45,066 nt of DNA from Chloroflexota bacterium (GCA_025454515.1 JALOOH010000022.1:1-45066); one strand, 5' to 3'. Counted from the first letter of the stretch, positions 23,590 to 39,520 are shown. The notes: generated from the sequence alone by a model not told the origin. Program-made: numbers and translations.

Positions 23590-23633
23590 ATCGACATCGA
23601 GCACCGTCCCGGCTCGGCTCCCGGAGGGCGACG

Positions 23634-23984
23634 ATGAAGATCCTCATCATCCTGAACGAGCCGGCGTACGGCAACGAGCGCACGTACAACGGGATGCGCC
23701 TGGCCGTCTCCCTCGCGAAGGACGACGGGATCGACCTGCGCGTCTTCCTGATGGGTGACGCCGTGACCGCCGCGCGGACCGCCCAGAAGACGCCCGACGG
23801 CTACTACAACCTCGAGCGGATGCTCAAGGGGTTGGTCCATAGGGGGATCGCCGTGGGCGCGTGCGGGACCTGCATGGACGCGCGCGGCATGGTCGACGAC
23901 CCGCTCGCGGAGCCGGTCCGGCGCGGGACGCTCGCCGAGCTGACCGAGTGGACGATCTGGGCGGACAAGGTCGTCACCTTCTGA
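23634..23984 (+). CDS. DsrE/YchN family sulfur-relay protein
   Basis: ILN.PAYG.ER, VFLMGDAV, ACGTCMDARG and WADKVVTF motifs; SD ggagg upstream. Confidence 0.9.
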   Translation: MKILIILNEPAYGNERTYNGMRLAVSLAKDDGIDLRVFLMGDAVTAARTAQKTPDGYYNLERMLKGLVHRGIAVGACGTCMDARGMVDDPLAEPVRRGTLAELTEWTIWADKVVTF

Positions 23985-24609: not shown

Positions 24610-25518
24610 TCATCCCGGGCCGCGCGACGCCTTCTCGATCCACGCCTCTCGTCGATCGCGCAGCTGGAGCGTGATCGGTCCGGCACCGCCCCGACCGATC
24701 GCCTCCCCGTCGAGCCTGCCGACCGGGATGATGCCGGCGACGCTGCTCGAGAGGAGGACCTCGTCCGCGCGCAGCAGGTCGGCGCGCGTGAGCTCGTCCT
24801 CCTCCGGCTCCAGGTCGTGGATCGGTGCATGCTCGAGCAGCCACGCCCGCGTCGTGCCCGCGAGGCAGCCCGACCCGAGTGGCGGCGTGAGGATCCGACC
24901 GCGGCGGATCGCGAAGACGTTCGCGCTCGTCGCCTCGCTCACGTGTCCCGTCGTGTCGAGGATGAGCGCGTCGTCCGCGCCCGCGCGCTCCGCCTCGAGG
25001 CGCGCGTACACGCTCTCCGCCCGCGACGTGGTCTTGACGCCGGCGAGCGGCGAGCCCGGGTCACGCCGCACCGACGAGGTCACGAGCGCGAGCCCGTCGC
25101 GCAGGACGGAGGCGGGGGGCGGCGTGTGCGGCCATGCGACGATGACGACCGTGGGTCCGGACGATGGCCCTGCCGGTGCGAGCCCCCGTGCCGCGTACGG
25201 CCCGCGCGTGACGGTGATGCGCAGGGCGGCGTCGCCGGGGTGGCGGCCGGACGAGCCGTCATCGGCGAGGCCCTCGGCGGCGAGGATCGCGGCGATGCCG
25301 GCGACGATCGGGGCGTCGTCGGGCGGGAGCGCGATCCCGAGCGGGACGGCGCTCTCGCGGAGGCGCTCGAGGTGCGCGTCGAGCTCGACCACGACGCCGC
25401 GGCGTGCGCGCAGCGTCTCGAAGATGCCGTCGCCGAGCATGAAGCCGCGGTCGAAGGCGGAGATCGTGGGGGCGTCGGCGGGGACGACCTTCCCGTCGAC
25501 CCAGACGTGCTGTGGCAT
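24610..25518 (-). CDS. Class IV aminotransferase (PabC ADC-lyase / branched-chain or D-amino-acid aminotransferase family)
   Basis: DRGFMLGDGIFET, HLERL, LRITVTRG, GVKT (PLP Lys), EATSANVF and CLAGTTR motifs. Confidence 0.9.
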   Translation of the reverse strand: MPQHVWVDGKVVPADAPTISAFDRGFMLGDGIFETLRARRGVVVELDAHLERLRESAVPLGIALPPDDAPIVAGIAAILAAEGLADDGSSGRHPGDAALRITVTRGPYAARGLAPAGPSSGPTVVIVAWPHTPPPASVLRDGLALVTSSVRRDPGSPLAGVKTTSRAESVYARLEAERAGADDALILDTTGHVSEATSANVFAIRRGRILTPPLGSGCLAGTTRAWLLEHAPIHDLEPEEDELTRADLLRADEVLLSSSVAGIIPVGRLDGEAIGRGGAGPITLQLRDRREAWIEKASRGPG

Positions 25519-25633
25519 GCCTCCAGCCTAGCGCGACCGCACACCCGGCTGCTCGGCGGTGCGAGGACGCACCGTCACCGGGCCCGGGGAGGTGCCGGGT
25601 GGCCCTGCCGTGCGGCCCGTCTGTACCCGGGAC

Positions 25634-25743
25634 CATATCGGCCGATGCAGGCCCTTTCGGGACGTTCGGCCGGTCTACACGGCGTGGCAGACTCGCGAAC
25701 ATTCGCATGGTTCCGGCAGGTATAGGTAGTTTCGGGAGTTTCA
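25634..25743 (+). promoter_or_regulatory. Phased 9-10-bp direct repeats (TTCGG-like) upstream of the heme operon regulator
   Basis: TTC cores at 25656/25665, 25702/25711 and 25731/25740; TTTCGGGA occurs twice; TATAGG at 25721. Confidence 0.45.
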
Positions 25744-25745
25744 CG

Positions 25746-26489
25746 GTGCCGACGCGGAGCAAGCCGACCGGGCGCGGACGCGAGTGGATGGGCCTGGGAG
25801 AGGCGGCCAGGCTGCTCGGCGTCTCGCCCACCACCCTCCGGCGATGGGCCGACGACGGGGTGGTCCGCTCGTTCGTGACCCCGGGCGGGCACCGGCGATT
25901 CCTCCGGTCCTCCCTCGAATCGATGATCCCGCACGACCGCGGCGGCAGACTGCCTCTGCAGCAGCTCGGCGAGACCCCCGAGCGGATGGCCCGCGCCTAC
26001 CGGCGGAGCACCGTGACGGAGGGACCGGACGCGGCCTGGATCCGTGCGATGGAGAGCACCGAGCGCGACCCGCTCCGCGAGCGGGGACGCGGCCTCTCGA
26101 CCGCGCTCCTCGCGTACCTCGACGCCGCCGACGACGCCGAGCGGAAGGCGCGGCTGGACGAGGCGTCCGCCGTCGCGGCCGAGTACGGCCGCGTGGCGCG
26201 ACTCCACGGCGCCACGGTCCACGACACCGTCGCGACGTTCCTCCGCTTCGCGCGACCGTTCGTGGGCGAGATCGCGACCTTCGCCCGGCGTCGCAACCTG
26301 GACACGAAGGAGGCGACGAGCCTCCTGGAGTCCACGCTGGCGGCGCTCGACGCGCTCCTCCTGGTGACGATCGAGGCGCACGAGGCGGCTCCGGGCGGCG
26401 GCGGCCGCCCCAACGCGATCGCCGCGGAAGCCGGGCCCGTGGCCTGCGGGCAAGCGTCGCCGCTCGCGCTCGCCGAGGTGGTGGCATGA
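25746..26489 (+). CDS. MerR/excisionase-like (HTH_17, BldC-like) regulator with an all-helical C-terminal domain
   Basis: WMGLGEAARLLGVSPTTLRRWAD.G..RSFVTPGGHRRF; stop overlaps the hemA start. Confidence 0.85.
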   Translation: MPTRSKPTGRGREWMGLGEAARLLGVSPTTLRRWADDGVVRSFVTPGGHRRFLRSSLESMIPHDRGGRLPLQQLGETPERMARAYRRSTVTEGPDAAWIRAMESTERDPLRERGRGLSTALLAYLDAADDAERKARLDEASAVAAEYGRVARLHGATVHDTVATFLRFARPFVGEIATFARRRNLDTKEATSLLESTLAALDALLLVTIEAHEAAPGGGGRPNAIAAEAGPVACGQASPLALAEVVA

Positions 26490-27730
26490 CCGGGCGGCCC
26501 CTCGCGCCGCTCGTCGCGCTCACCGTCCACGCCCGGCGGGTCCCCAGCCTCGACCGCGAGGCCTTCGCCGCGCACGCCGCCCCGCTCGCCGATGCGCGGG
26601 GGACGATCCTCCTGCACACGTGCCACCGCGTGGAGCTGTACGCATGGTCGCCGGCGCTCCAGGGCGCCGCGCTCCCGCCCCTGCCCGCGGGTGGCGTGCG
26701 TCTCGACGGGACCGAGGCGGCGAGCCACCTGTTCACCGTCGCGGCCGGGATGGACAGCGTCGTCATCGGCGAGGACCAGATCCTCCACCAGCTGCGCGAC
26801 TGCCTGGCGGCACGGCACGAGCACACCGCCGCGACACCCGGGTCCTGCCCTGCCGGCGGGGCCGCCGGTGCCATCGGCGTCACTCTCGCGGGCCGGGACG
26901 CGGCCGCTGCGCCGCTCGACCCGGTCCTGGAGCGCCTCTTCCAGCACTCGCTCCACGTCGGCCGGCAGGCGCACGCCTGGCGCGACGGCGCGCCCCGGTC
27001 GCTCGCCGACGTGGCGCTCGACCGGATCGGCCGCGACCACGAGACGCTCGAGGACCGGCCCGTCCTCATCGTGGGTGCCGGCGCGATGGGCCGGATCTCC
27101 GCGCTCGCCGCCGCCCGCCGCGGCGCCCGCGTCCTCGTGACGAACCGGACCGAGGAGCGGGCCGCGGCGCTCGCGCACGACGTCGCGGGCGTACCGGTGC
27201 CCTTCGCGCCCGGCGCGGGGCTCCCCGCCGTCGCCGGCGTCATCGTCGCGGCCGGCGGCCCGTGGCCCGTCGACCCGGCGACCTCCCGTCGTCTCGGCCA
27301 GGCGGGCGCGGTCGTCGTCGACCTGTCGTCCCCCCCGGCGATCCCGCCGGACGTCCAGGCCGCGCTCGGGCCCGCGTTCATCTCGGTGGACGACCTCGCG
27401 CGCGCTCCCGAGGCGAAGCCGCACGAGCGCCTCCGGCGCCGGGTGGACCGCCTCGTGGCCGAGACCGCCGCGGAGTTCGAGGCGTGGACGGCGACGCGCG
27501 GCTGCGTCCCCGCGATCCGCGCGATCGCCGACCACGCCGAGGCGCGTCGTGCAGCGGAGCTCGACCGGCTCCTCCGCCGCGCCCCGACGCTCGAGCCCGA
27601 GGTCCGCGACCTCGTGGACGAGATGTCCCAGCGCCTCGTCGCCGGCCTGCTCCACGGACCGCTCGCCGCTCTCCGCTCGGATTCGAGCGGCGAGCGCGAC
27701 GCGCTCGTCCGCGAGCTCTTCGGCCTGTGA
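26486..27730 (+). CDS. hemA: Glutamyl-tRNA reductase
   Basis: TCHRVE (catalytic Cys), GMDSVVIGEDQIL, GAGAMG, TNRT and LLHGP motifs. Confidence 0.9.
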   Translation: MTGRPLAPLVALTVHARRVPSLDREAFAAHAAPLADARGTILLHTCHRVELYAWSPALQGAALPPLPAGGVRLDGTEAASHLFTVAAGMDSVVIGEDQILHQLRDCLAARHEHTAATPGSCPAGGAAGAIGVTLAGRDAAAAPLDPVLERLFQHSLHVGRQAHAWRDGAPRSLADVALDRIGRDHETLEDRPVLIVGAGAMGRISALAAARRGARVLVTNRTEERAAALAHDVAGVPVPFAPGAGLPAVAGVIVAAGGPWPVDPATSRRLGQAGAVVVDLSSPPAIPPDVQAALGPAFISVDDLARAPEAKPHERLRRRVDRLVAETAAEFEAWTATRGCVPAIRAIADHAEARRAAELDRLLRRAPTLEPEVRDLVDEMSQRLVAGLLHGPLAALRSDSSGERDALVRELFGL

Positions 27731-29448
27731 CCGGTCCGCAGCAGGCGCCCGTGCCGCCCGCCCCCCCGGCGGCACGGGTCCTGCGGCTCGGCACGCGGGG
27801 GAGTGCGCTCGCGCTCATCCAGTCGCGGGAGGTGGCGGCTGCGCTCGAGGCGGTCGGGGTCCCGGTGGAGCTCGTCGTGATCCGGACCGCGGGCGACGAC
27901 CAGGCGCCCGACACCGCGTGGGGCGAGGGCGCGTTCGTCGGCGCCCTGGAGCGAGGCCTGCTCGACGGCTCGATCGACCTCGCCGTCCACAGCGCGAAGG
28001 ACGTGCCCACGACGGTGGACGCCCGGCTCGCGATCGCCGCGTACCGGCCCCGCCAGGACCCGCGCGACGCCCTCGTCTGCCGCGAGCGCGGCGGCTCGGT
28101 CGCCACCCTCCCTCGCGGTGCCCGCGTGGGGACCGACAGCCCGCGGCGCTCCGCGTTCCTTCTCGCGCAGCGTCCCGACCTCCGGGTCCACCCGTTGAAC
28201 GGGAACGTGGACACGCGCCTCCGCCGGCTCGATTCCGGCGAGAGCGACGCGCTCGTGCTCGCCGTCGCCGGCCTCACGCGGCTCGACCGCGACGACCGGA
28301 TCGACGAGCGGATCGAGCCCGACGTCATCCCGCCGGCGCCGGGCCAGGGGGCCGTGGCGGTCCAGGTCCGTGCCGGCGACGACGTCGCGCGGGCCTCGGT
28401 CGCGCTGCTCGACGACGCGCCCACCCGCATGTGCGTCGAGGCCGAGCGCGCCTTCCTGCACGCCTCCGGCGGTGGGTGCCGCGCGCCGATCGGCTGCCTC
28501 GGGCGGATCGAGGGCGGCGAGATCGTCCTCCGCGCCGGCGTCTCCCGCGAGCCGGTCGGCCCCGGCGTCCCGGTCGCCTGGCGCGAGGCCCGCGGTCCGG
28601 TCGCGGACCGCATCGCGCTCGCCGAGGCCCTCGCGGCCGCGCTCCGTCCGGCGCGCGGGGCCGATGCACCCGGCGCGGCGCGCCGCCCGACGGTCCTCGT
28701 CACGCGGCCGGAGGACCAGGCCGGCCCGCTCGTCGCCGCGCTCGACGCGCGGGGGATCGGCGCGGTCGTCATCCCGACGATCGCCGTCGAGCCGGCCGAT
28801 CCGGCGCCCATCGAGGCCGCGGCCCGCCGGCTGCCGGAGTTCGACTGGGTCGTGGTCACGAGCCCGAACGGCGCGCGGGCGCTCCTCGCGGCCGCCGCGC
28901 GCGCCGGCGCCCACCCGGGCTCCGCGCGCTGGGCCGCGGTCGGGGCGGCGACGGCGCTCGTCCTCGATCCGGCGGACGTCGGCCCGGTCTTCGTCCCGTC
29001 CGCCGGCTCGGGCGCCGCGCTCGGCGCGGAGCTGCCCGTCCGCCCCGGCGAGCGCGTCCTCCTCGCCCGGTCGGACATCGCGGACACCTCGCTCCCCGAG
29101 CGACTCGCGGCCGCCGGCGCGCGGGTCGAGGAGATCGTCGCCTACCGGACGGTCGAGGGTCCCGAGTCGTCCCGCGGCGCCCTTGTCGACGTCGTCGCGT
29201 CCGGGATGGTCGCCGCCCTCGTCTTCACCAGCGGCTCGACCGTGCGGGGCCTCCTCGCGCTCCTGCCGGCGGACCTGGCAGCAGCCGTCCGCGCGCTGCC
29301 CGCCTGCTGCATCGGCGAGCCCACGACCGCCGTCGCGACGGCCGCCGGCTTCGCACGCGTCGCGACAGCCGCCTCGCCGCGCGCCGAGGCGGTCGCCGAC
29401 CTCGTCTCCGCCACACTCGTCACCCCTGCCACCGGAGCGCTCGCATGA
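27727..29448 (+). CDS. hemC: Hydroxymethylbilane synthase-uroporphyrinogen III synthase fusion (HemC-HemD)
   Basis: GTRGSALA, VHSAKDVP, GNVDTRL and GGGC, then VLVTRP, VVTSPNG, AVG and FTSGSTV. Confidence 0.92.
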   Translation: MTGPQQAPVPPAPPAARVLRLGTRGSALALIQSREVAAALEAVGVPVELVVIRTAGDDQAPDTAWGEGAFVGALERGLLDGSIDLAVHSAKDVPTTVDARLAIAAYRPRQDPRDALVCRERGGSVATLPRGARVGTDSPRRSAFLLAQRPDLRVHPLNGNVDTRLRRLDSGESDALVLAVAGLTRLDRDDRIDERIEPDVIPPAPGQGAVAVQVRAGDDVARASVALLDDAPTRMCVEAERAFLHASGGGCRAPIGCLGRIEGGEIVLRAGVSREPVGPGVPVAWREARGPVADRIALAEALAAALRPARGADAPGAARRPTVLVTRPEDQAGPLVAALDARGIGAVVIPTIAVEPADPAPIEAAARRLPEFDWVVVTSPNGARALLAAAARAGAHPGSARWAAVGAATALVLDPADVGPVFVPSAGSGAALGAELPVRPGERVLLARSDIADTSLPERLAAAGARVEEIVAYRTVEGPESSRGALVDVVASGMVAALVFTSGSTVRGLLALLPADLAAAVRALPACCIGEPTTAVATAAGFARVATAASPRAEAVADLVSATLVTPATGALA

Positions 29449-30470
29449 CCCTCGCCATCGACCGGCCCGACGCCGCCGTCGCGCCGACGATCCCCCAGCG
29501 CCGGCTCCGCCGGTTCCGTCGCACCGCCGGGCTGCGCGCGCTCGTGCGCGAGACACACCTCGACCCGTCGATGCTCGTCGCCGGGCTCTTCGTCCAGCCC
29601 GGGACGGGCCGCCGCGACCCGATCGGCTCGATGCCGGGCGTCGCGCGCCTCTCGCCGGACCTCGTCGTGGAGGAGGCGCGCCGCCTCGACACGCTCGGCG
29701 TCGGCGGGCTCATCCTGTTCGGGCTCCCCGACGCGAAGGACGGCGTGGGGTCCGGCGCATGGGCCCGGGACGGCATCATCCAGGAGACGCTCTCCCGCCT
29801 GCGCGAGGCGGACGTCTCGCTCCCGCTCATCGCGGACACGTGCCTCTGCGAGTACACGGACCACGGGCACTGCGGACCGCTCGCGCAGGACGGCAGCGTC
29901 GCGAACGACCTCGCGATCGCGCTCCTCGCCGAGACCGCCGTCTCGCAGGCTGCCGCGGGGGCCGACGTCGTCGCTCCGTCCGCGATGATGGACGGCCAGG
30001 TCGCCGCGATCCGCGCGGCGCTCGACGCCGCCGGGCACCGCGAGACCGCGATCCTGGCGTACGCGGCGAAGACGGCATCGGCGTTCTACGGCCCGTTCCG
30101 CGAGGCTGCAGACTCCGCGCCGGCGTTCGGCGATCGGCGCGGCTACCAGATGGACCCGGCGAACGCCCGCGAGTCGATGCTCGAGATCGCCCTCGACGTC
30201 GCCGAGGGCGCCGACGCGATCCTCGTGAAGCCGGCGCTCCCGTCGCTCGACATCCTCGCCCGCGCCCACGACCGCTTCGACCTGCCGATCGGGGCATACC
30301 AGGTGAGCGGCGAGTACGCGTCGATCGTGGCGGCGGCCCAGAACGGCTGGCTCGACCGGCGCCGCGCGCTCCTCGAATCGACGACGTCGATCGTCCGGGC
30401 CGGCGCCTCGTTCGTCATCACGTACGCCGCCGCGGAGATCGCGGAATGGCTCCGGGAGGATCCGCGATGA
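29445..30470 (+). CDS. hemB: Porphobilinogen synthase (Zn-type)
   Basis: DTCLCEYTDHGHCG, APSAMMDG, FYGPFREA, VKPA and YQVSGEY motifs. Confidence 0.96.
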   Translation: MTLAIDRPDAAVAPTIPQRRLRRFRRTAGLRALVRETHLDPSMLVAGLFVQPGTGRRDPIGSMPGVARLSPDLVVEEARRLDTLGVGGLILFGLPDAKDGVGSGAWARDGIIQETLSRLREADVSLPLIADTCLCEYTDHGHCGPLAQDGSVANDLAIALLAETAVSQAAAGADVVAPSAMMDGQVAAIRAALDAAGHRETAILAYAAKTASAFYGPFREAADSAPAFGDRRGYQMDPANARESMLEIALDVAEGADAILVKPALPSLDILARAHDRFDLPIGAYQVSGEYASIVAAAQNGWLDRRRALLESTTSIVRAGASFVITYAAAEIAEWLREDPR

Positions 30471-31783: not shown

Positions 31784-32958
31784 CGGCGGAGCGGGGCGCG
31801 ACGCGGAGCCGGCGCCGCCCGGCCGCCGACCCGGCCCCGGCCGCTGCCGCCGACCCGGCCCCGGCCGCTGCCGCCGACCCGGCCCCGGCCGCCCAGCCCA
31901 CCGCGCGGTACCTCCGCGCGGCCCGTCGCCTCCCGGTCGACGCCACGCCGGTCTGGTTCATGCGCCAGGCCGGCCGGTCCCTGCCCGAGTACCGCGCCGT
32001 CCGCGAGCGCGCCACCCTGGTCGAGATCACCCGTGACGCGGCGCTCTGCGCCGAGGTCACGATGCAGCCGGTCCGCCGCCTCGGCGTGGACGCGGCGATC
32101 CTCTTCGCGGACATCACGACGCCGTTCGCCGGGATGGGCGTGGCCTTCGACATCGTCGAGGGGCGCGGCCCCGTCCTCGAGCGGCCGATCAGGACCGCGG
32201 CGGACGTCGCCGCGCTCGTGCCCTTCGAGCCCGCCCGCGACGTCGCGCCCCTCCTCGAGGCGATCCGGCTCATCCGCGCGGAGTCGCCGGTCCCGCTCAT
32301 CGGCTTCGCCGGCGCCCCGTTCACGCCGCTCGCGTGCTATCTCGTCGAGGGCGGCCCCTCCCGCGAGTTCGTCCGGACCCGGACGCTCATGCACGCGGAC
32401 CCGGGGACGTGGTCGATGCTCATGAAGATCCTCACCGACACGACCGCGCGATACCTCCGCGCGCAGGTCGAGGCCGGCGCGCAGGCCGTCCAGGTCTTCG
32501 ACTCCTGGGTGGGCGGCCTGTCCCCGTTCGACTACTCCCGGTCGGTGGCGCCCTGGATGGCGCGACTGTTCGACCAGCTCGCGAGCCTCGGCGTCCCCAC
32601 GTGCCACTTCGGCACCGGGACTGCGGGGATCCTGCGGCAGCAGGCCGAGGCCGGCGGCGACATCGTGGGGCTCGACCACCGCATCTCCCTGGCGGACGGC
32701 TGGGCGCTCGTGGGCGACCGCGCGGTGCAGGGGAACCTCGACCCGGTCCTCCTCCTGGGCCCCTTCGATGCCGTGGCCGATGCCGCCCGCTGGGTCCTCG
32801 ACCAGGCGGCCGGGCGACCCGGCCACGTCTTCAACCTGGGGCACGGCGTGATCCCGGCGACCGATCCCGACGACCTCCGTCGCCTCGTGGATCTCGTCCA
32901 CGAGAGCCGCCCGGCCCAGCGCGACCACTCCGGCACATCGAACGGAGCGTCCCGATGA
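31780..32958 (+). CDS. hemE: Uroporphyrinogen decarboxylase
   Basis: PVWFMRQAGRSLPEYR, AILFADI, QVFDSW, QGNLDP and NLGHG motifs. Confidence 0.96.
   Translation: MTAERGATRSRRRPAADPAPAAAADPAPAAAADPAPAAQPTARYLRAARRLPVDATPVWFMRQAGRSLPEYRAVRERATLVEITRDAALCAEVTMQPVRRLGVDAAILFADITTPFAGMGVAFDIVEGRGPVLERPIRTAADVAALVPFEPARDVAPLLEAIRLIRAESPVPLIGFAGAPFTPLACYLVEGGPSREFVRTRTLMHADPGTWSMLMKILTDTTARYLRAQVEAGAQAVQVFDSWVGGLSPFDYSRSVAPWMARLFDQLASLGVPTCHFGTGTAGILRQQAEAGGDIVGLDHRISLADGWALVGDRAVQGNLDPVLLLGPFDAVADAARWVLDQAAGRPGHVFNLGHGVIPATDPDDLRRLVDLVHESRPAQRDHSGTSNGASR
31822..31893 (+). repeat. 24-bp tandem repeat x3 (AADPAPAA) in the hemE N-terminal extension
   Basis: gccgccgacccggccccggccgc(t/c) three times. 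Confidence 0.93.
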
Positions 32959-33905
32959 CCACTCCCGCCGTCCTCCTCCTCGCCTACGGCAGCCCCGACT
33001 CGCTCGACCAGGTCGAGGCGTACTACACGGACATCCGCCGGGGGAACCCGCCGACGCCCGAGCTCCTCGCGGAGCTCACGGACCGCTACCGCGCGATCGG
33101 CGGCGGGTCGCCGCTCTCGCGGATCGTGGAGGATCAGCGCGCGGCGCTCGAGACCGAGCTCGCCCGCCGCGGCCGCCCGATCCCCGTGTACGCCGGCATG
33201 CGCCACATCGCGCCCCGGATCGCGGCCGTCATCGAGCGCATGGCCGACGACGGGGTGACCGACGCGGTCGCCATCCCGCTCGCGCCGCAGGCGTCGATGA
33301 GCGTCGAGGGCTACCGCCGCGCCGTGGACGCCGCGTGCGCCGCCCTCGGCGACCGTGCCCCGCGCATCGCGTTCGTCGCGTCGTGGTGCCGGGAGCCCGC
33401 GTTCATCGAGGGCCTGGCCGAGACCACCGGCGAGGCGCTCGCCCGCTTCCCCGACCCGGCCGCCGTCCGGCTCATGTTCACCGCGCACAGCCTGCCGCAG
33501 CGGGTCGTGGACGCCGGCGACGTCTACCCGGACGAGCTCGTCGCCACGTCGCGCCTCGTCGCCGACGCCCTCGGCCGGGAGGCGTACGACTTCGCGTACC
33601 AGAGCGCCGGCCGGACCGACGAGCCGTGGCTGGGCCCGGAGATCCTCGCTGAGATCCGCCGCCTCGCCGGCGACGGGGCGACCGAGCTCGTCGTCAGCCC
33701 CGTCGGGTTCATCGCGGACCATCTCGAGGTCCTGTACGACATCGACATCGAGGCGCAGGGCGTCGCCCGCGAGGTGGGGATCCACCTGGAGCGGCCCCGG
33801 ATGCTCGACGACGACCCGCACCTGGTCTCGGCGCTCGCCGGGATCGTCGAGCGGACGCTCCCCCCGACGGGCGCGGCCTTCCCGGCCGCCTCCGCCGGCC
33901 GCTGA
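32955..33905 (+). CDS. hemH: Ferrochelatase, coproporphyrin (CpfC) type
   Basis: LLAYGSP, YYTDIRRG, RYRAIGG.SPL, FTAHSLP, YQSAG, WLGP and GFIADHLEVLYDID motifs. Confidence 0.94.
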   Translation: MTTPAVLLLAYGSPDSLDQVEAYYTDIRRGNPPTPELLAELTDRYRAIGGGSPLSRIVEDQRAALETELARRGRPIPVYAGMRHIAPRIAAVIERMADDGVTDAVAIPLAPQASMSVEGYRRAVDAACAALGDRAPRIAFVASWCREPAFIEGLAETTGEALARFPDPAAVRLMFTAHSLPQRVVDAGDVYPDELVATSRLVADALGREAYDFAYQSAGRTDEPWLGPEILAEIRRLAGDGATELVVSPVGFIADHLEVLYDIDIEAQGVAREVGIHLERPRMLDDDPHLVSALAGIVERTLPPTGAAFPAASAGR

Positions 33906-33922
33906 CCCCAGGAGGATCCCTC

Positions 33923-35197
33923 GTGGACCAGACGATCGCGACCCACGCCGTCACGACCTCCGCCACCGCGCCCGCGCCCCCGACGAAGCCGCCGGCCATC
34001 CCCGGTCCGCCGTCGGGCCTCCGCGCCGGCCATCCGGGCGGCCACCCGGGGGCGATCCCCGGCGCCGGTTCCGTGCGCCCGACCGGCTACGTCTTCGGCC
34101 GCGCGCCGATGATGCTGTACTGGGAGATGACCCGGTCGTGCGGCCTGGTCTGCCGCCACTGCCGCGCCGAGGCCAACGCCGAGCGCCACCCCGACGAGCT
34201 CACGACGGCCGAGGGCGAGGCGCTCCTCGACCGCGTCCTCGGCTTCGGGGACCCGATGCCGCACGTCGTCTTCACCGGCGGCGACCCCCTCCGTCGACCC
34301 GACCTCCCGGACCTCGTCCGCGCCGCCCGCGCCCGCGGGATCGGTGCCTCGCTCGCGCCGGCGGCCACGCCGGAGCTCACCCGCGACGCCCTGCTCCGCC
34401 TGAAGGAGGCGGGAGTCCAGAACATCAGCCTCAGCCTGGACGGCTCCAACGCCGTCCGCCACGACGGCTTCCGCGGCGTGGAGGGCACGTTCGACCTGAC
34501 CGTGAAGGCGGCCGGCTGGGCGCAGGAGGCCGGGCTCCCGGTGCAGCTCAACACGCTCGTGACGAACGAGACGCTCGACGACCTGCCGGCGATCTTCGAC
34601 CTCTGCCCCAGCCTGGGGATCATGCGCTGGAGCCTCTTCTTCCTCATCAGCGTGGGCCGCGGCACGGACCTGCAGGAGATCAGCCCGGCCGAGAGCGAGA
34701 AGCTCATGGCCTGGCTGCTCGAGATCGGGAAGACCGCGCCGTTCCAGGTGAAGACGACCGAGGCGACGCACTACCGCCGGATCGCGATCCGGACGATGCA
34801 CGACCGCGGGATGACGGACGAGGAGATCGCGCAGACGAGCATCGGGCGCGGGTTCGGGATCCGCGACGGCAACGGGATCATGTTCATCAACTTCGACGGC
34901 GACATCTACCCGTCGGGCTTCCTCCCCGTCGCCGCGGGCAACGTCCGCCGCGACGATATCGTCGACGTGTACCGGAACAGCCCGCTCTTCCGCTCGCTCC
35001 GCGACGTGGCGAGCTTCAAGGGCCGCTGCGGCCGCTGCGAGTACAACGCCCTGTGCGGCGGCTCGCGCGCCCGCGCGTTCACGTGGACGGGCGACCCGCT
35101 CGAGACCGACCCGCTCTGCCCGTACGTGCCGCCGGCCGCGGACGATGTGGCTGCCGCGGCGATCGCCGCGGCCGCGACCGCGGCGCGCGCCGGGTAG
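33923..35197 (+). CDS. Radical SAM/SPASM protein of the NirJ/AhbD clade (TIGR04053-like)
   Basis: WEMTRSCGLVCRHCRA (CX3CX2C), FTGGDP, SLDG, YPSGFLP and CGRCEYNALCGGSRARA...DPLC; SD aggagg before GTG. Confidence 0.88.
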   Translation: MDQTIATHAVTTSATAPAPPTKPPAIPGPPSGLRAGHPGGHPGAIPGAGSVRPTGYVFGRAPMMLYWEMTRSCGLVCRHCRAEANAERHPDELTTAEGEALLDRVLGFGDPMPHVVFTGGDPLRRPDLPDLVRAARARGIGASLAPAATPELTRDALLRLKEAGVQNISLSLDGSNAVRHDGFRGVEGTFDLTVKAAGWAQEAGLPVQLNTLVTNETLDDLPAIFDLCPSLGIMRWSLFFLISVGRGTDLQEISPAESEKLMAWLLEIGKTAPFQVKTTEATHYRRIAIRTMHDRGMTDEEIAQTSIGRGFGIRDGNGIMFINFDGDIYPSGFLPVAAGNVRRDDIVDVYRNSPLFRSLRDVASFKGRCGRCEYNALCGGSRARAFTWTGDPLETDPLCPYVPPAADDVAAAAIAAAATAARAG

Positions 35198-35225
35198 GGC
35201 GGGCGGGGCGGGGCCGGGGTCGCGC

Positions 35226-36734
35226 ATGCACGCGGTCGTCGTCGGTGGCGGGGTCACGGGCCTCACGGCCGCGTACGTCCTCGGCCGGGCCGGGATCCGG
35301 ACCACGCTGCTCGAATCGTCGGACCGCCTCGGCGGCAAGGTCCGCACCTTCACGGGCGACGGCTTCGTCGTCGAGGAGGGGCCCGATTCGTTCATCGCGG
35401 TGCGGCCCGCCGCGGCGCAGCTCTGCCGCGAGCTGGGCCTGGGCCCCGATCTCGTCGGGACCGTGGACCCACGGACCGTGTACGTCCTGCGCGGCGACCG
35501 CCTCGTCCCGATGCCCGACGGGCTCGCACTCGTCCTGCCGACGAAGTTCCTGCCCTTCGTGACCACGCGGCTGTTCTCGTGGCCCGAGAAGGCGCGGATG
35601 GGGCTCGACCTCGTCCTCCCGCGCGGCCCGATGGAGGGCGACGACACGGTCGGCCGCCTCCTCCGGCGACGGCTGGGGGACGCCCTTGTGGACCGGCTCG
35701 CGGGCCCCCTCGTCGGCGGCATCTACGGCACGTCGATCGACGAGCTGAGCCTCCTCGCGGTGATCCCCAGCCTGCGGGAGAACGAGCGCGAGCACCGGAG
35801 CCTCCTCCTCGCGAGCGTCGCGGAGGCGCGGCTGCGGAAGGCGCGCGAGAACGAGCGAGCGGCCGCCCGCGCGGCCGCGGACGCGGCAGCCGCGGCGGGC
35901 GGACCGGGCGGACCGGGCGGACCGGGCGGGCCGGGCGGACCCCCGCCGGGACCGGCGCCGCGATCCGTCTTCCTCAGCCTGCGCGGCGGGATGACGCGGA
36001 TGACCGACGCGCTCGCGACGGCCATCGAGGGCATGAGCTGCGTGGACGTCCGCCTCGGTGCATCGGTCGTCGCGCTCCAGCCCGCCGGCGGGGGCTCGCG
36101 CCTCCTCCTGGCGGACGGGAGCCGCCTCGACGCCGACGCCGTCGTCCTCGCGTCGCCCGCGCCGGCGACCGCCGACATCCTCGACGATGCCGCGCCGGTC
36201 ACGGCCGCCGCGCTGCGGACGATCAGGTACGGCAGCGCGACGATCGTGACGCTCGCGTACCGCGACGACCAGCTGACGCGGCCGATCGTGGGTCACGGGT
36301 ACGTCGTCGCCGCCGATGGCACGAACCCGCTCTCCGCCTGCACGATCACGTCCGGCAAATGGCCGGGACGCGCTCCGGCAGGCACCGTCCTGCTCCGCGC
36401 GTACCTCCGGACCGAGGGCGACGGCGCGCTGCCGGCGTCCGCATCGGACGATGAGGTGGCCGCCGCCGCGCGCACCGTCGTGGAGCGGACGCTCGGACCG
36501 CGCGGGGAGCCGATCGTCTGCCGCGTCGCTCGGTGGGAGGGCGCGATGCCGCGCTACACGCTCGGCCACCTCGACCGCGTGGCCGCTGCGGAGGCGGGAC
36601 TCGCGGGCCTCCCCGGGGTCGTCCTTGCCGGGGCCGCCTACCGGGGTGTGGGCCTGCCCGACTGCGTCACGCAGGCGCGAGCGGCCGCGGCCCGGGTCCT
36701 CGAGATGGCCCCGGGGGTCGCCGCCGCGGCCTGA
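35226..36734 (+). CDS. hemG: HemY-type (copro/proto)porphyrinogen oxidase (CgoX)
   Basis: VVGGGVTGL FAD motif, EEGPDSF, PLVGGIYG, GGM, SGKWP, MPRY..GH and GVGLPDC. Confidence 0.93.
   Translation: MHAVVVGGGVTGLTAAYVLGRAGIRTTLLESSDRLGGKVRTFTGDGFVVEEGPDSFIAVRPAAAQLCRELGLGPDLVGTVDPRTVYVLRGDRLVPMPDGLALVLPTKFLPFVTTRLFSWPEKARMGLDLVLPRGPMEGDDTVGRLLRRRLGDALVDRLAGPLVGGIYGTSIDELSLLAVIPSLRENEREHRSLLLASVAEARLRKARENERAAARAAADAAAAAGGPGGPGGPGGPGGPPPGPAPRSVFLSLRGGMTRMTDALATAIEGMSCVDVRLGASVVALQPAGGGSRLLLADGSRLDADAVVLASPAPATADILDDAAPVTAAALRTIRYGSATIVTLAYRDDQLTRPIVGHGYVVAADGTNPLSACTITSGKWPGRAPAGTVLLRAYLRTEGDGALPASASDDEVAAAARTVVERTLGPRGEPIVCRVARWEGAMPRYTLGHLDRVAAAEAGLAGLPGVVLAGAAYRGVGLPDCVTQARAAAARVLEMAPGVAAAA
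35898..35942 (+). repeat. 9-bp tandem repeat x5 (GGP) inside a HemY loop
   Basis: ggcggaccg x3, then ggcgggccg and ggcggaccc. Confidence 0.9.
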
Positions 36735-37255: not shown

Positions 37256-37651
37256 TCACGCCGGCTCGACCCGGCGCACCGTCGTGACGCGGTCGAGCGA
37301 CCGATCGAATGACGCGACGACGCCCAGGCCCGTCCGCTCGGCGCAGGCGACGAGATACGCTTCGGCGAAGTCGAGCCGGTGCACGTCGTACACCTCGACA
37401 GCCCGCTGGAGCAGGTCCGCGTCCTGGACGCGGATCGGCGGGAACGCGAGCACCGAGCGCAGGATCGCAGCGACCCGATCGCGCGGCGTCTCGTAGTAGG
37501 ACTCGAGGACGCACGCGAGCTCGGCGAGGATCAGGTCCGGCAGGAGGACGCCGTCGGCGCCGGCGAGGTAGCGGGTCGCGCGGGCCGCCTGCTCCGGCGG
37601 GTCGCCCGTGAGATGGCGGACCAGGACGTTCGTGTCGACGAACGCGGTCAC
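37256..37651 (-). CDS. vapC: PIN-domain toxin (VapC)
   Basis: FVDTNVLV, ILAEL, LDFAEA and SFD acidic motifs; overlaps the antitoxin stop. Confidence 0.9.
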   Translation of the reverse strand: MTAFVDTNVLVRHLTGDPPEQAARATRYLAGADGVLLPDLILAELACVLESYYETPRDRVAAILRSVLAFPPIRVQDADLLQRAVEVYDVHRLDFAEAYLVACAERTGLGVVASFDRSLDRVTTVRRVEPA

Positions 37652-37896
37652 CGCCGACGGCGCCCGCGCGCGGCGTGCACGTCGCGGACGATGTCGTCCC
37701 ACTGCGTGCTGCGCCTGGCCGCGGGGATCTCGACCGAACCGGCCAGCGCGAGCAGGTCCGGTGTGCGTGCGATGACCGCATGGTCACCCTCCACGCGGAA
37801 GACCACGCGGTCGCCCTCCACGAGCGAGAGCGCCTCCCGGACCGCGTGCGGGATCGTGACCTGGCCCTTCGAGGTCAGTCGCGCTGCGATCTCCAC
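37648..37896 (-). CDS. vapB: AbrB/MazE/SpoVT-family antitoxin (VapB)
   Basis: ARLTSKGQVTIP..VREAL...GDRVVF; SD aggag. Confidence 0.9.
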   Translation of the reverse strand: MEIAARLTSKGQVTIPHAVREALSLVEGDRVVFRVEGDHAVIARTPDLLALAGSVEIPAARRSTQWDDIVRDVHAARGRRRR

Positions 37897-37951: not shown

Positions 37952-37986
37952 CCGCCCGGTCACCGCCCGGTCACCGCCCGGTCACC
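37952..37986. repeat. 11-bp tandem repeat (ccgcccggtca) x3
   Basis: Perfect copies between the pabB stop and the vapB promoter. Confidence 0.9.
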
Positions 37987-39434
37987 TACCCCACCTCGCT
38001 GCAACCCACCGCGCGCAGCGGACCGCGGGCCTTCGCCCGTGTCTCCTCCCATTCCGCGTCCGGGTCGCTGCGGCGGGTGATCCCGCCGCCCACGTGCAGG
38101 GTGAGGCGCCGGCCGTCGGCCACGAAGGTCCGGATGAGGATGCTCGACCCCATCGCCCCGTCCGGGCCCAGCCAGAGCGCGGTCCCGCAGTAGGGGCCCC
38201 GGCGGACGGGCTCGAGCTCCTCGATGAGCCGCATCGCGCGGATCTTCGGCGCGCCGGTGATCGACCCGCCCGGGAAGGCGGCCGCCAGGAGGTCGAACGC
38301 GTCGAGCCCCGGCAGGAGACGCCCGACGACGGTCGAGACGAGGTGCTGGACGGCCGCCGTCCGCTCGAGCCGACACAGGCGCGGGACGCGCACGCTGCCC
38401 GGCCGGCACACGCGGCCCAGGTCGTTGCGGAGGACGTCCACGATCATGACGTTCTCGGCGCGGTCCTTGTCGCTGCCGAGCAGCTCGGCCGCGAGCATGC
38501 GATCCTCGGCGCGCGTGCTCCCGCGCGGGCGCGTCCCCTTGATCGGGTCGGTCTCGACCCCGCCGCGCGCGTCGACCGACAGGAACGGCTCCGGCGAGGC
38601 GGACGCGATGGCGCGCGTCGCGCCCGTCGACGGATCCGGCCCCAGGTCGAGGTACGCCGCGAACGTTGCCGGGTCGCCGGCCCGCAGGGCAGCGAAGATC
38701 GGCCACGGATCGCCGGCGAAGCGAGCCTCGAGCCGTCGGGCGAGGTTCGCCTGGTACAGATGGCCGGCGGCGATCGCCGCCCGGATGCGCTCGACGCGGT
38801 CGCCCCACGCGGCACGGTCGAGCCCGGAGGCGAAGCGCACCGGGGCGGCGGCCGTCGCGTGCGGCGCTCCCGCCCCGCCCCCGCCCGCGTGCGCGCGCGC
38901 CCCCGCGAGCCGCGCGCGCACCTCCCCCAGCCGCTCCGCAAGTCGATCCTCGTCGCCGTCGACCGGCCGACCGCACAGCAGGACGCGCCCTTCGCGGCGA
39001 TCGACCGCCACGGCCCAGTCGTGCAGCGCGAGCGACAGCAGGGGAAGGGGCTGGTCGTCGGCCGCCAGCGACGGGATCCGCTCCAGCTCGCGCCCCACGT
39101 CGTACCCGACGTACCCGACGAGGCCGCCGGTGAACGGAGGGAGGTCGGCGGGCGAGGCGCCGCCCGGGCCCATCCGCGCGAGGAGCGCCCGTGCCGGCGC
39201 GAACGTCGCCCCGCGCGGGCCCGGCTCGCGGACGACCGCCAGCGGGTCGGCCGTCACGTACGTCCAGCGCGACCGGCGACCGGTCCGCGCGCTGTCGAGC
39301 ACGGCCAGGCCGGGAAGCCCGCGCAGCGCCTCCGCGATCGCGGGGACCTCCGCCCCGGTGACCTCCGGCACCTCCACGGGGGTACCTCCGGCGGTCCCGA
39401 TAGGCATCCCGGTCGTCTGGCGGACGCTCACCAT
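37986..39434 (-). CDS. pabB: Aminodeoxychorismate synthase component I (anthranilate synthase component I family)
   Basis: PFTGGLVGYVGYD, YQANL, SASPEPF, PIKGT (PabB-type Lys), KDRAENVMIVD..RNDL, FPGGSITGAPK and GGGI. Start 39434 preferred over 39446. Confidence 0.88.
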   Translation of the reverse strand: MVSVRQTTGMPIGTAGGTPVEVPEVTGAEVPAIAEALRGLPGLAVLDSARTGRRSRWTYVTADPLAVVREPGPRGATFAPARALLARMGPGGASPADLPPFTGGLVGYVGYDVGRELERIPSLAADDQPLPLLSLALHDWAVAVDRREGRVLLCGRPVDGDEDRLAERLGEVRARLAGARAHAGGGGAGAPHATAAAPVRFASGLDRAAWGDRVERIRAAIAAGHLYQANLARRLEARFAGDPWPIFAALRAGDPATFAAYLDLGPDPSTGATRAIASASPEPFLSVDARGGVETDPIKGTRPRGSTRAEDRMLAAELLGSDKDRAENVMIVDVLRNDLGRVCRPGSVRVPRLCRLERTAAVQHLVSTVVGRLLPGLDAFDLLAAAFPGGSITGAPKIRAMRLIEELEPVRRGPYCGTALWLGPDGAMGSSILIRTFVADGRRLTLHVGGGITRRSDPDAEWEETRAKARGPLRAVGCSEVG

Positions 39435-39520
39435 GGGGCGCATCATCGCATCGAACGGACCGGCGTCCGTCGGCGGCCGTGTGACGCGCCGCGCGCCGCC
39501 GCCGCCGCACGAGGTCGCCC

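What the first reader, a model, noticed from the sequence alone, without database searches (positions are those of the whole stretch)
32955..36734. Coproporphyrin-dependent heme operon with a radical SAM enzyme where ChdC/HemQ is expected
Seen: hemA-CD-B-L-E-H-[rSAM]-hemY is contiguous, with no chdC, hemN/hemF or ahbA/B/C in the window. Known: the CgoX-CpfC route ends in coproheme, which needs ChdC (peroxide-dependent) or the rSAM AhbD. Inference: this TIGR04053-like protein is the coproheme decarboxylase, giving a hybrid pathway and a function for a poorly characterised family.
Basis: partly seen in the sequence, partly recalled or inferred. Interest (0 to 1): 0.72.

Follow-up and report, generated by a model that had tools for sequence, protein, structure and literature searches.

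The report
AhbD-type heme synthase in coproporphyrin operon
A soil-type Chloroflexota genome carries a complete heme-synthesis operon whose last step is most likely done by an oxygen-independent radical SAM enzyme of the AhbD kind instead of the usual peroxide-using ChdC, an arrangement that reviews have already predicted from genomes but nobody has yet tested at the bench.

Summary
Window 26.5-36.7 kb is one + strand operon: hemA, hemC-hemD, hemB, hemL, hemE, hemH (32955-33905), a radical SAM gene (33923-35197) and hemY (35226-36734). The radical SAM protein passes the TIGR04053 cut-off (459.9 vs 395 bits); AhbD is its next-best model (302.9 bits, cut-off 500).

TIGR04053 is an AhbD clade, not an orphan family:
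- It is sister to canonical AhbD in a tree.
- It keeps the CX3CX2C and CX2CX5CX20C motifs.
- It takes AhbD's place in siroheme-pathway genomes.
- It is fused to ferrochelatase or HemY in other organisms.
- Haloferax volcanii, whose ahbD knock-out needs heme anaerobically, has a member (PMC5746218).

No ChdC, HemN, HemF or AhbA/B/C was found in this 85%-complete genome.

The predicted anti-correlation with ChdC fails: 32 of 46 TIGR04053-bearing Chloroflexota genomes also have ChdC.

An AhbD-like enzyme serving coproporphyrin-pathway bacteria is already in reviews (PMC13564367, PMC10114771). Verdict: a sound annotation and a new member of a known kind. Biochemistry is untested. Interest is modest.

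The parts
25785..26489 (+). MerR/HTH_17-type regulator directly upstream of hemA (start approximate; the ORF is open from 25512)
   Evidence: Pfam HTH_17 41 bits and MerR 36.6 bits. Homologues (47-70% identity) lie upstream of the heme operon in G012 and G005. An HTH_17 gene directly precedes the radical SAM gene in G077.
26490..27730 (+). hemA, glutamyl-tRNA reductase (start approximate)
   Evidence: Pfam GlutR_N, Shikimate_DH and GlutR_dimer
27781..29448 (+). hemC-hemD fusion: porphobilinogen deaminase plus uroporphyrinogen-III synthase (start approximate)
   Evidence: Pfam Porphobil_deam 220 bits and HEM4 164.6 bits in one ORF
29499..30470 (+). hemB, porphobilinogen synthase (start approximate)
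   Evidence: Pfam ALAD 425.8 bits
30575..31783 (+). hemL, glutamate-1-semialdehyde aminomutase (start approximate). Only about 80 bp separate it from hemB, at the site where relatives G007 and G008 carry chdC (in G024 chdC lies between hemB and hemE).
   Evidence: Pfam Aminotran_3 211.3 bits; blastn synteny
31897..32958 (+). hemE, uroporphyrinogen decarboxylase (start approximate)
   Evidence: Pfam URO-D 383.2 bits
32955..33905 (+). hemH, ferrochelatase, read as coproporphyrin ferrochelatase CpfC. Its ATG overlaps the hemE stop (ATGA).
   Evidence: Pfam Ferrochelatase 253.3 bits; TIGR00109 212 bits; sequence. Orthologues lie in operons that also hold ChdC.
33923..35197 (+). Radical SAM/SPASM-type enzyme of family TIGR04053 (P0001, 424 aa), read as an AhbD-type coproheme decarboxylase (heme synthase). 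Radical SAM cluster Cys73/77/80. Auxiliary cluster Cys369/372/378/399. A 57-aa Pro/Gly/Ala-rich N-terminal tail precedes the core.
   Evidence: NCBIfam TIGR04053 459.9 bits (cut-off 395), TIGR04545 AhbD 302.9 bits; RBS and start; tree; Cys columns; AF2 model pLDDT 85.4
35226..36734 (+). hemY, FAD-dependent HemY-type oxidase, read as coproporphyrinogen oxidase CgoX
   Evidence: Pfam Amino_oxidase 193.2 bits; TIGR00562 254.2 bits (cut-off 97.85); start ATG with GGGVTG motif

Best explanation
The operon encodes the whole coproporphyrin-dependent route to heme b.

The proposed route:
- HemA and HemL make 5-aminolevulinate.
- HemB, the HemC-HemD fusion and HemE carry it to coproporphyrinogen III.
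- HemY (CgoX) oxidises that to coproporphyrin III.
- HemH (CpfC) inserts iron to give coproheme.
- The TIGR04053 radical SAM protein then acts as an AhbD-type heme synthase.

The proposed mechanism of the last step: the [4Fe-4S] cluster on Cys73/77/80 cleaves SAM to a 5'-deoxyadenosyl radical. That radical abstracts a hydrogen from a propionate side chain. CO2 and one electron leave, the electron passing through the auxiliary cluster on Cys369/372/378/399. A vinyl group forms. This happens twice, on rings A and B, using two SAM per heme b.

Shown here: gene content and order, family membership, motifs, phylogenetic position, and the contexts and fusions of relatives.

Inferred: the substrate and reaction, taken from M. 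barkeri and D. vulgaris AhbD biochemistry and the H. volcanii knock-out. Also inferred is that in this genome the enzyme is the only coproheme decarboxylase rather than an oxygen-independent partner of an unassembled ChdC. I put about 0.7 on true absence of ChdC, within the overall 0.75.
For: 1. Family. The protein scores 459.9 bits for TIGR04053 (cut-off 395). The next models are all iron-tetrapyrrole side-chain radical SAM enzymes: AhbD 302.9, NirJ2 189.9, AhbC 161.3 bits.

2. Tree of 55 rows. AhbC-like enzymes split from the AhbD side with SH-aLRT 100. TIGR04053 forms a 46-row clade (SH-aLRT 97) beside two canonical AhbDs that lie in AhbC-AhbD-AhbA/B contexts.

3. Motifs. All 46 TIGR04053 rows carry C369, C372, C378 and C399, and 45 of 46 carry the CX3CX2C cysteines. 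This matches the CX2CX5CX20-38C motif that Fix et al. give for all AhbDs. At the AuxI positions the window protein has E280, I313, S331 and S381, where the two canonical AhbDs have Cys. That is the Glu/Ser/Ser pattern reported for non-methanogen archaeal AhbDs (PMC10452713, passages read).

4. H. volcanii is the control genome above the TIGR04053 cut-off, and M. acetivorans the one above the TIGR04545 cut-off. The H. volcanii ahbD deletion loses anaerobic growth, and DMSO-respiring growth is restored by heme (PMC5746218).

5. Fifteen TIGR04053-positive Chloroflexota genomes lack ferrochelatase. In 5 of 5 that I checked there is a fused AhbA/B. An AhbC/NirJ1-type enzyme lies beside or near the TIGR04053 gene in the four whose neighbour I scored (G228, G159, G140, G054). 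In G205 the matching gene beside AhbA/B was seen only as a 202.8-bit match to the TIGR04053 model. In these genomes the family sits in AhbD's place.

6. Context. hemH-rSAM-hemY is conserved in 11 of 11 family relatives that have the gene. Among the 80 best loci out of at least 542 relatives from many phyla, 58 have hemH, hemY or chdC within 5 kb.

7. Fusions. Of 39 longer homologues, 8 carry Radical_SAM plus Ferrochelatase, with both domain orders seen. Nineteen carry a HemY-type oxidase, 1 GlutR, 1 AhbA/B and 1 CtaA. G242 has a 739-aa rSAM-ferrochelatase ORF.

8. No other candidate for this step was found in the genome. At the operon site where relatives G007 and G008 carry chdC, between hemB and hemL, the window has about 80 bp.
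Against: No member of this clade from a coproporphyrin-pathway bacterium has been assayed. I saw none in the listing of 40 of the 80 papers since 2019 that hold 'AhbD', and 'TIGR04053' occurs in 0 papers.

The protein is below NCBI's AhbD cut-off: 302.9 against 500 bits.

ChdC is not replaced by the family:
- 32 of 46 TIGR04053-positive genomes also have ChdC.
- Among ferrochelatase-positive genomes the enzyme is equally frequent with ChdC (27 of 121) and without it (4 of 17).

The gap-filling argument is not clean. Of 13 ferrochelatase-positive genomes with neither enzyme, only 2 have HemN above the cut-off and none has HemF.

The assembly is 84.8% complete, and same-genus relatives G004 and G005 do have ChdC.

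HemY-type CgoX is described as needing O2 and producing peroxide, and no CgoN was found. An oxygen-sensitive enzyme would therefore work next to an oxygen-using one.

Five near-complete f10 genomes keep hemE, hemY and this enzyme but have no ferrochelatase at all. Its substrate there cannot come from the known route.
Confidence: 0.75

Rival explanations
1. Same enzyme activity, different role. The radical SAM protein is only the oxygen-independent alternative, as HemN is to HemF or AhbD to PitA/ChdC in H. volcanii. A chdC gene lies in the unassembled 15% of this genome.
For: ChdC co-occurs with the family in 32 of 46 genomes. It is adjacent to the gene in G289, G081, G099 and G143 (positions; context read for G289), close by in G227, and adjacent in an Armatimonadota MAG. 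Same-genus G004 and G005 have ChdC. The assembly is 84.8% complete. The synteny around G004's chdC breaks at contig ends in this assembly.
Against: No trace was found by HMM search or by tblastn with six relatives' ChdC. The in-operon site used by G007 and G008 is intact and empty here. Six relatives carry the enzyme and no ChdC: G002, G003, G009, G020, G023 and G044. Three of them are 95-98% complete.
Confidence: 0.2
2. The enzyme acts earlier in the pathway, on a metal-free intermediate. It could be a HemN-like coproporphyrinogen dehydrogenase, which would make the route protoporphyrin-dependent. Or it could be an oxygen-independent helper for the HemY step.
For: Nineteen of 39 longer homologues are fused to a HemY-type oxidase. 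Five f10 genomes keep hemE, hemY and the enzyme but have no ferrochelatase. No CgoN was found here.
Against: All characterised relatives (AhbD, AhbC, NirJ) act on iron tetrapyrroles (family names; PMC10114771, passages read). The family stands in for AhbD in siroheme-pathway genomes that have no hemE-hemY route in the regions read. It is also fused to ferrochelatase, in both domain orders. Orthologous operons carry ChdC, which only makes sense with coproheme as intermediate.
Confidence: 0.04
3. The enzyme makes or remodels a different tetrapyrrole. It could be a NirJ-like step toward a modified heme. Or it could serve heme delivery or maturation rather than bulk heme b synthesis.
For: NirJ2, NirJ and AhbC models also match at 150-190 bits. 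One homologue is fused to the heme a synthase CtaA. Some members lie next to NorB.
Against: No nir or heme d1 genes were seen in the window. The tree places the clade with AhbD, not with the AhbC/NirJ1-type enzymes. The gene sits inside the core heme operon, with a 17-nt gap after hemH and a 28-nt gap before hemY.
Confidence: 0.01

Closest known systems
AhbD, radical SAM heme synthase of the siroheme-dependent pathway (Methanosarcina barkeri, Desulfovibrio vulgaris; NCBIfam TIGR04545)
   Same: Radical SAM core with CX3CX2C. C-terminal CX2CX5C...C auxiliary-cluster motif. Sister position in the tree. Predicted SPASM/twitch fold, with PqqE and SuiB as the top Foldseek hits; Fix et al. report SuiB as the first structural relative of their AhbD model. 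Presumed same reaction, coproheme to heme b.
   Different: It scores 302.9 bits against a 500-bit cut-off. It is 36% identical to the canonical Chloroflexota AhbD of an AhbC-AhbD-AhbA/B operon. It lacks the AuxI cysteines, having E/I/S/S instead. It lies in a hemE-hemH-hemY operon with no ahbA/B/C in the genome.
Haloferax volcanii AhbD (HVO_2144) and the other non-methanogen archaeal AhbDs without a full SPASM motif
   Same: H. volcanii holds a protein above the TIGR04053 cut-off. Fix et al. describe the same Glu/Ser/Ser replacement of AuxI cysteines. The organism has both an AhbD and a ChdC-type enzyme (PitA), used anaerobically and aerobically respectively (PMC5746218).
   Different: It is archaeal, and its coproheme comes from siroheme through AhbA/B/C. 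That the H. volcanii TIGR04053 match is HVO_2144 itself is my inference from the control line and the paper. I did not read it from a sequence.
ChdC (HemQ), coproheme decarboxylase of the coproporphyrin-dependent pathway
   Same: Same step and same operon neighbourhood. It is directly adjacent to the TIGR04053 gene in several genomes.
   Different: Unrelated fold (chlorite dismutase family, PF06778). It is peroxide-dependent, with no SAM or iron-sulfur clusters. It was not found in this genome.
AhbC / NirJ1 and NirJ (didecarboxysiroheme-modifying radical SAM enzymes)
   Same: Same superfamily and the same seven conserved cysteines. They are neighbours of TIGR04053 genes in siroheme-pathway genomes.
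   Different: A separate clade (SH-aLRT 100). They remove acetate or propionate side chains of didecarboxysiroheme rather than making vinyl groups (PMC10114771, passages read).
HemN / CgdH, oxygen-independent coproporphyrinogen dehydrogenase
   Same: Radical SAM oxidative decarboxylation of the same two propionates to vinyls.
   Different: A different radical SAM family without a SPASM domain, acting on a metal-free substrate. This genome has only a 70.8-bit HemW-like match.

Membership tests
NCBIfam TIGR04053 radical SAM/SPASM family | Whole-protein score above the curated cut-off (395 bits) | tested here: met
   459.9 bits, model positions 3-366 of 366; 458.2 bits in the genome search
AhbD heme synthase (sensu NCBIfam TIGR04545) | Score above the curated cut-off (500 bits) | tested here: not met
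   302.9 bits. A Chloroflexota AhbD from a canonical AhbC-AhbD-AhbA/B-SirC operon also falls short, at 467.7 bits, so the cut-off is strict.
AhbD heme synthase (sensu Fix et al. 2023) | N-terminal CX3CX2C radical SAM motif | tested here: met
   C73-X3-C77-X2-C80
AhbD heme synthase (sensu Fix et al. 2023) | C-terminal CX2CX5CX20-38C motif (AuxII ligands), present in all AhbDs of that study | tested here: met
   C369-X2-C372-X5-C378-X20-C399, invariant in 46 of 46 clade members; motif definition from PMC10452713 section 3.1
AhbD heme synthase (sensu Fix et al. 2023) | Full SPASM motif with four further Cys (AuxI). Found only in the methanogen and sulfate-reducer subset, so not defining for AhbD as a whole. 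| tested here: not met
   E280, I313, S331 and S381 at the columns where the two canonical AhbDs have D/C, C, C, C. This is the pattern Fix et al. describe for non-methanogen archaeal AhbDs.
AhbD heme synthase | Groups with AhbD rather than with AhbC/NirJ1 in a tree | tested here: met
   Split between AhbC-like (7 rows) and the AhbD side (48 rows) has SH-aLRT 100; TIGR04053 clade SH-aLRT 97. This was a quick search with no bootstrap.
AhbD heme synthase | SAM-dependent conversion of coproheme to heme b | not testable with these tools
   Needs enzyme assay or genetics. The nearest evidence is the H. volcanii ahbD knock-out (PMC5746218).
Coproporphyrin-dependent (CPD) heme pathway | HemE, HemY-type oxidase (CgoX) and ferrochelatase (CpfC) present | tested here: met
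   I did not test from sequence whether they are the coproporphyrin-type rather than the protoporphyrin-type enzymes. It is inferred from orthologous operons that hold ChdC and from the lack of HemN and HemF.
Coproporphyrin-dependent (CPD) heme pathway | ChdC (HemQ) as the terminal enzyme | tested here: not met
   0 matches to PF06778 in the 84.8%-complete assembly; tblastn best hit 31 bits
Siroheme-dependent (Ahb) heme pathway | AhbA/B siroheme decarboxylase and AhbC present | tested here: not met
   PF17805 only 26.4 bits, in a 168-aa frame. No second NirJ/Ahb-type radical SAM gene; the others score 48.5 bits or less.

The most novel reading that the evidence does not exclude
In this Limnocylindrales-type lineage the AhbD-type radical SAM enzyme would be the ancestral coproheme decarboxylase, and in this genome the only one. 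The organism looks aerobic: it has a heme-copper oxidase subunit I at 541.6 bits, an O2-type HemY and no CgoN. Radical SAM chemistry would then serve routine aerobic heme synthesis directly downstream of a peroxide-producing oxidase. ChdC would be a patchy later addition. In relatives it occurs in two unrelated forms. One is inserted between hemB and hemL (or hemB and hemE). The other is a ChdC-HemH2 module whose ferrochelatase clusters with actinobacterial ones.
Probability: 0.4. Interest if true: 0.45.

Novelty: new member of a known kind. Interest (0 to 1): 0.3.

Why it matters
It moves a widely distributed, generically named family towards a specific function. My scan found at least 542 loci across Chloroflexota, Actinomycetota, Acidobacteriota, Armatimonadota, Methylomirabilota and other phyla. 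NCBI labels the family only 'TIGR04053 family radical SAM/SPASM protein'.

The proposed function is the oxygen-independent last step of heme synthesis in bacteria that use the coproporphyrin route. Reviews still phrase this step as 'may' or 'might' (PMC13564367, PMC10114771). Jahn's group called the oxygen-independent enzyme for it 'yet unknown' in 2024 (PMC10965808).

The natural fusions to ferrochelatase and to HemY, and genomes such as this one that lack ChdC, point to good proteins and hosts for the missing biochemical proof. For a specialist the result is expected rather than surprising.

Tried and rejected
1. Rejected: 32 of 46 TIGR04053-positive genomes also have ChdC, against 146 of 301 overall.

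2. Gap-filling. I asked whether every ferrochelatase-positive genome has some known decarboxylase. It holds within the window's family, 10 of 10, and the 7 genomes without ferrochelatase have neither enzyme. It fails at phylum scale: 13 of 138 have neither ChdC nor TIGR04053, and only 2 of those have HemN and 0 have HemF.

3. A dedicated ferrochelatase paralogue for the radical SAM route. In the HemH tree of 85 rows, rSAM-adjacent ferrochelatases do not form one clade across families. The large rSAM-adjacent clade is simply the window's own order. Only the ChdC-adjacent HemH2 group is distinct.

4. Complex prediction of HemH with the radical SAM core, alignments A2 and A1. The result was no verdict (score 0.00). 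It says nothing either way.

5. Structure. The AF2 model is good (pLDDT 85.4), but Foldseek returns only generic SPASM/twitch enzymes: PqqE, SuiB, SkfB, BlsE, anSME. No AhbD or NirJ structure was found by sequence. This confirms the fold class and nothing more specific.

6. Synteny test for chdC at the G004 site. Inconclusive, because the region is split over contigs C106, C71 and C294 here.

The 7-row alignment A3 worked.

8. Dailey et al. 2015 (PNAS) and 2017 (MMBR), the sources of the published genomic inference, are not held. I know their content only through the reviews that cite them.

Full report
**What is there.** The window is contig C139 of a 2.76 Mb metagenome-assembled genome. The assembly has 301 contigs, is 84.8% complete and 1.8% contaminated, and has about 75% G+C. 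The closest public relatives are labelled Chloroflexota/Chloroflexia, and close protein homologues carry Candidatus Limnocylindr- source names, cut off in the listing.

Pfam on the long + strand frames gives an unbroken row:
- a MerR/HTH_17 regulator
- hemA
- a hemC-hemD fusion
- hemB
- hemL
- hemE
- hemH
- a Radical_SAM protein
- a HemY-type flavin amine oxidase

Reading the junctions:
- The hemH ATG at 32955 overlaps the hemE stop as ATGA.
- The radical SAM gene starts at GTG 33923. This is 17 nt after the hemH stop and 6 nt after an AGGAGGA box.
- hemY starts at ATG 35226 (MHAVVVGGGVTG), 28 nt after the radical SAM stop.

Downstream lies a PIN-domain gene on the other strand, so the operon ends with hemY.

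**The radical SAM protein.** P0001 (424 aa) scores 459.9 bits for NCBIfam TIGR04053 (cut-off 395). The next models are AhbD/TIGR04545 at 302.9 (cut-off 500), NirJ2 at 189.9 and AhbC at 161.3 bits. It has:
- a 57-residue Pro/Gly/Ala-rich tail
- the CX3CX2C motif at C73/C77/C80
- a C-terminal C369-X2-C372-X5-C378-X20-C399 motif

An AlphaFold2 model of the core is confident (pLDDT 85.4, pTM 0.83). It resembles SPASM/twitch enzymes: PqqE, SuiB, SkfB, BlsE, anSME. No AhbD or NirJ structure was found by sequence search of the PDB.

**TIGR04053 is an AhbD clade.** Five lines of evidence point the same way.

First, the tree. I used 55 enzymes taken from relatives' loci (IQ-TREE quick search, SH-aLRT only). 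The AhbC/NirJ1-type enzymes (7 rows) separate from the rest with support 100. On the other side stand two canonical AhbDs. One comes from an AhbC-AhbD-AhbA/B-SirC-hemA-hemC operon (G160). The other is fused to AhbA/B in a Phycisphaerae MAG. Beside them is a 46-row TIGR04053 clade (support 97) that contains the window protein.

Second, the cysteines. All 46 rows keep the four C-terminal cysteines and 45 of 46 keep the radical SAM cysteines. At the four columns where the canonical AhbDs have the extra cysteines, the clade has E/A, V/I/T, S and S. The window protein has E280, I313, S331 and S381. Fix et al. 2023 (PMC10452713; abstract, introduction, sections 3.1-3.2 and discussion read as passages) report that all AhbDs share CX3CX2C and CX2CX5CX20-38C. 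Only methanogen and sulfate-reducer enzymes have the full SPASM motif. In non-methanogen archaeal AhbDs three of the extra cysteines are replaced by one Glu and two Ser. The window protein fits that second group.

Third, the control genomes. The tool's control line shows Haloferax volcanii as the one named control genome above the TIGR04053 cut-off. Methanosarcina acetivorans is the one above the TIGR04545 cut-off. In H. volcanii, deleting ahbD (HVO_2144) leaves aerobic growth intact and abolishes anaerobic growth. Heme restores DMSO-respiring growth (PMC5746218, passages read). That the control match is HVO_2144 is my inference.

Fourth, siroheme-pathway genomes. In a sample of 301 Chloroflexota genomes, 15 TIGR04053-positive genomes have no ferrochelatase. 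I checked five of them (G228, G159, G140, G054, G205). All five have a fused AhbA/B. In G228, G159, G140 and G054 an AhbC/NirJ1-type radical SAM gene lies next to or near the TIGR04053 gene. In G205 the second radical SAM gene lies beside AhbA/B and scored 202.8 bits on the TIGR04053 model, but I did not score it against the AhbC/NirJ1 models. In these genomes the family occupies AhbD's place in a siroheme-dependent pathway.

Fifth, existing names. JGI already labels some close homologues 'AdoMet-dependent heme synthase', and others 'radical SAM protein, BA_1875 family'.

**Link to the coproporphyrin route.**
- hemH-rSAM-hemY is conserved in all 11 genomes of the window's family that carry the enzyme.
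They come from Chloroflexota, Actinomycetota (including Propionibacterium cyclohexanicum DSM 16859), Acidobacteriota, Armatimonadota, Methylomirabilota, Eremiobacterota, Bacillota and others.
- In the 80 best loci, 58 have hemH, hemY or chdC within 5 kb, 45 have both hemH and hemY, and 21 have chdC. Several loci are cut by contig ends. Twenty-two show the gene alone.
- Of 39 longer homologues (E of 1e-40 or better), 8 combine Radical_SAM with Ferrochelatase, 19 with a HemY-type oxidase, 1 with GlutR, 1 with AhbA/B, 1 with CtaA and 2 with a pyridine-nucleotide oxidoreductase.
- I confirmed the domain layout for six of them. Both ferrochelatase orders occur. G242 has a 739-aa rSAM-ferrochelatase ORF.

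Fusion to the enzyme that makes coproheme is what one expects of a coproheme consumer.

**Is ChdC really missing, and does the enzyme replace it?** In this genome I found none of the following:
- ChdC, by HMM search or by tblastn with six relatives' ChdC (best hit 31 bits)
- HemF
- HemN above 70.8 bits
- AhbA/B
- a second NirJ/Ahb-type enzyme
- CgoN/YtpQ

Relatives G007 and G008 carry chdC between hemB and hemL, and G024 carries it between hemB and hemE. The window has about 80 bp between hemB and hemL.

Six relatives have the enzyme but no ChdC: G002, G003, G009, G020, G023 and G044. G020 and G023 are 95% complete and G044 is 98% complete. ChdC-less genomes of this kind are therefore real.

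But the two enzymes are not alternatives in general:
- 32 of 46 TIGR04053-positive genomes also have ChdC.
- Among the 138 ferrochelatase-positive genomes, the enzyme occurs in 27 of 121 with ChdC and in 4 of 17 without it.
- In G289, G081, G099, G143 and an Armatimonadota MAG the two genes are adjacent, and in G227 they lie in the same operon, separated by hemB.

The pattern resembles HemF/HemN or PitA/AhbD. These are oxygen-dependent and oxygen-independent enzymes for one step, kept together in many organisms, with one lost in some.

The gap-filling argument is clean only inside the window's family. There, all 10 ferrochelatase-positive genomes have ChdC, the enzyme or both: 6 have both, 2 have only the enzyme, and 2 have only ChdC. 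The 7 genomes without ferrochelatase have neither. At phylum scale 13 ferrochelatase-positive genomes have neither. Only two of these have a true HemN, and none has HemF.

Five genomes flagged unpublished by the tool (G066, G194, G197, G287, G296) are counted in these tallies, all as ferrochelatase-positive, ChdC-positive and TIGR04053-negative. No other claim uses them.

**Literature.** The idea is not new.
[quoted passage not shown] It says AhbD 'may' catalyse the anaerobic conversion in the CPD pathway.
- Layer's 2022 review says an AhbD-like radical SAM enzyme 'might be responsible' (PMC10114771).
- Jahn's group in 2024 still calls the oxygen-independent enzyme 'yet unknown' (PMC10965808).
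- The original analyses (Dailey et al. 2015, 2017) are not held.
- 'TIGR04053' occurs in 0 papers, and 'BA_1875' in no relevant paper.
- The first 40 of the 80 papers since 2019 that hold 'AhbD' show enzymology only for M. barkeri (listing and abstracts seen).

So the assignment is anticipated but untested for bacteria of this pathway. The link between the published 'AhbD in CPD organisms' and NCBI's TIGR04053 name appears not to be in the searchable literature.

**Open oddities.** The organism has a heme-copper oxidase. It combines an O2-type HemY with an oxygen-labile type of enzyme.

Five near-complete genomes of another Chloroflexota family (f10) carry the enzyme but have no ferrochelatase even at E of 0.01, and no ChdC. 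In the two whose context I read (G180, G046) the operon is hemA-C-D-B-rSAM-hemE-DUF4491-hemY-hemL. Sister genomes have rSAM-ChdC adjacent, and in G289, the one whose operon I read, hemH lies in the same operon. I cannot explain who inserts iron in the genomes without ferrochelatase.

**Verdict.** The enzyme is very probably an AhbD-type coproheme decarboxylase, and probably the only one in this genome. The family is not an orphan, the hybrid route is a published prediction, and the proposed anti-correlation fails. This is a new member of a known kind, of modest interest. It is chiefly useful as a well-supported annotation and as a pointer to good targets for the missing biochemistry.

Noticed in passing
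L070 (G180:C44:4000-18194) and L071 (G046:C138:1-15000); also G090, G116, G134: Five 97-100% complete Chloroflexota genomes of family f10 carry TIGR04053 but have no ferrochelatase (PF00762, E up to 0.01) and no ChdC. In the two read, the operon is hemA-hemC-hemD-hemB-rSAM-hemE-DUF4491-hemY-hemL. Sister genomes have rSAM-ChdC adjacent, and in G289, whose operon was read, hemH lies in the same operon. The iron-inserting enzyme is unknown.
   Followed up: partly
Proteins P0122-P0160; L049:401-2620 (G242): Natural fusions of the TIGR04053 domain. Partners are ferrochelatase (8 clusters, both domain orders), a HemY-type oxidase (19 clusters of about 780-876 aa, some from Acidobacteriaceae MAGs), GlutR, AhbA/B, the heme a synthase CtaA, and a pyridine-nucleotide oxidoreductase.
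   Followed up: partly
L031:13983-15619 (G012), L017 (G005), L092: Some relatives of the window's family carry a second terminal module, ChdC followed by a second ferrochelatase only 31% identical to the operon's HemH. That second ferrochelatase clusters with ChdC-adjacent ferrochelatases of Actinomycetota (13 rows, local support 99), which hints at transfer of the module.
   Followed up: partly
L069:5558-9333 (G100): A TIGR04053 gene lies directly beside a NorB-type nitric oxide reductase gene. This recalls H. volcanii, where ahbD sits among nirK and norB (PMC5746218).
   Followed up: no
window 25512-26489 (+): A MerR/HTH_17 regulator sits directly upstream of hemA. Homologues lie upstream of the heme operon in G012 and G005, and an HTH_17 gene directly precedes the radical SAM gene in G077. 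It is a possible operon regulator.
   Followed up: no
window 3263-9973 (+): A single 2236-aa frame with strong third-position G+C (0.92). Its only Pfam matches are protein O-mannosyltransferase domains near residues 1487-1976. The first roughly 1480 residues match nothing.
   Followed up: no
window 24610-25518 (-) and 37986-39446 (-): A class IV aminotransferase and a chorismate-binding enzyme flank the heme operon on the opposite strand. By my recollection this pair looks like PabC and PabB of folate synthesis. That was not tested.
   Followed up: no
window 37256-37702 (-): A PIN-domain protein (60.7 bits) lies just downstream of hemY on the other strand, probably the toxin of a toxin-antitoxin pair.
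   Followed up: no
window 22861-23984: A divergent pair: an ArsR-type HTH fused to a rhodanese domain (- strand) and a DsrE/DsrF-like protein (+ strand). This suggests a small sulfur-transfer unit.
   Followed up: no
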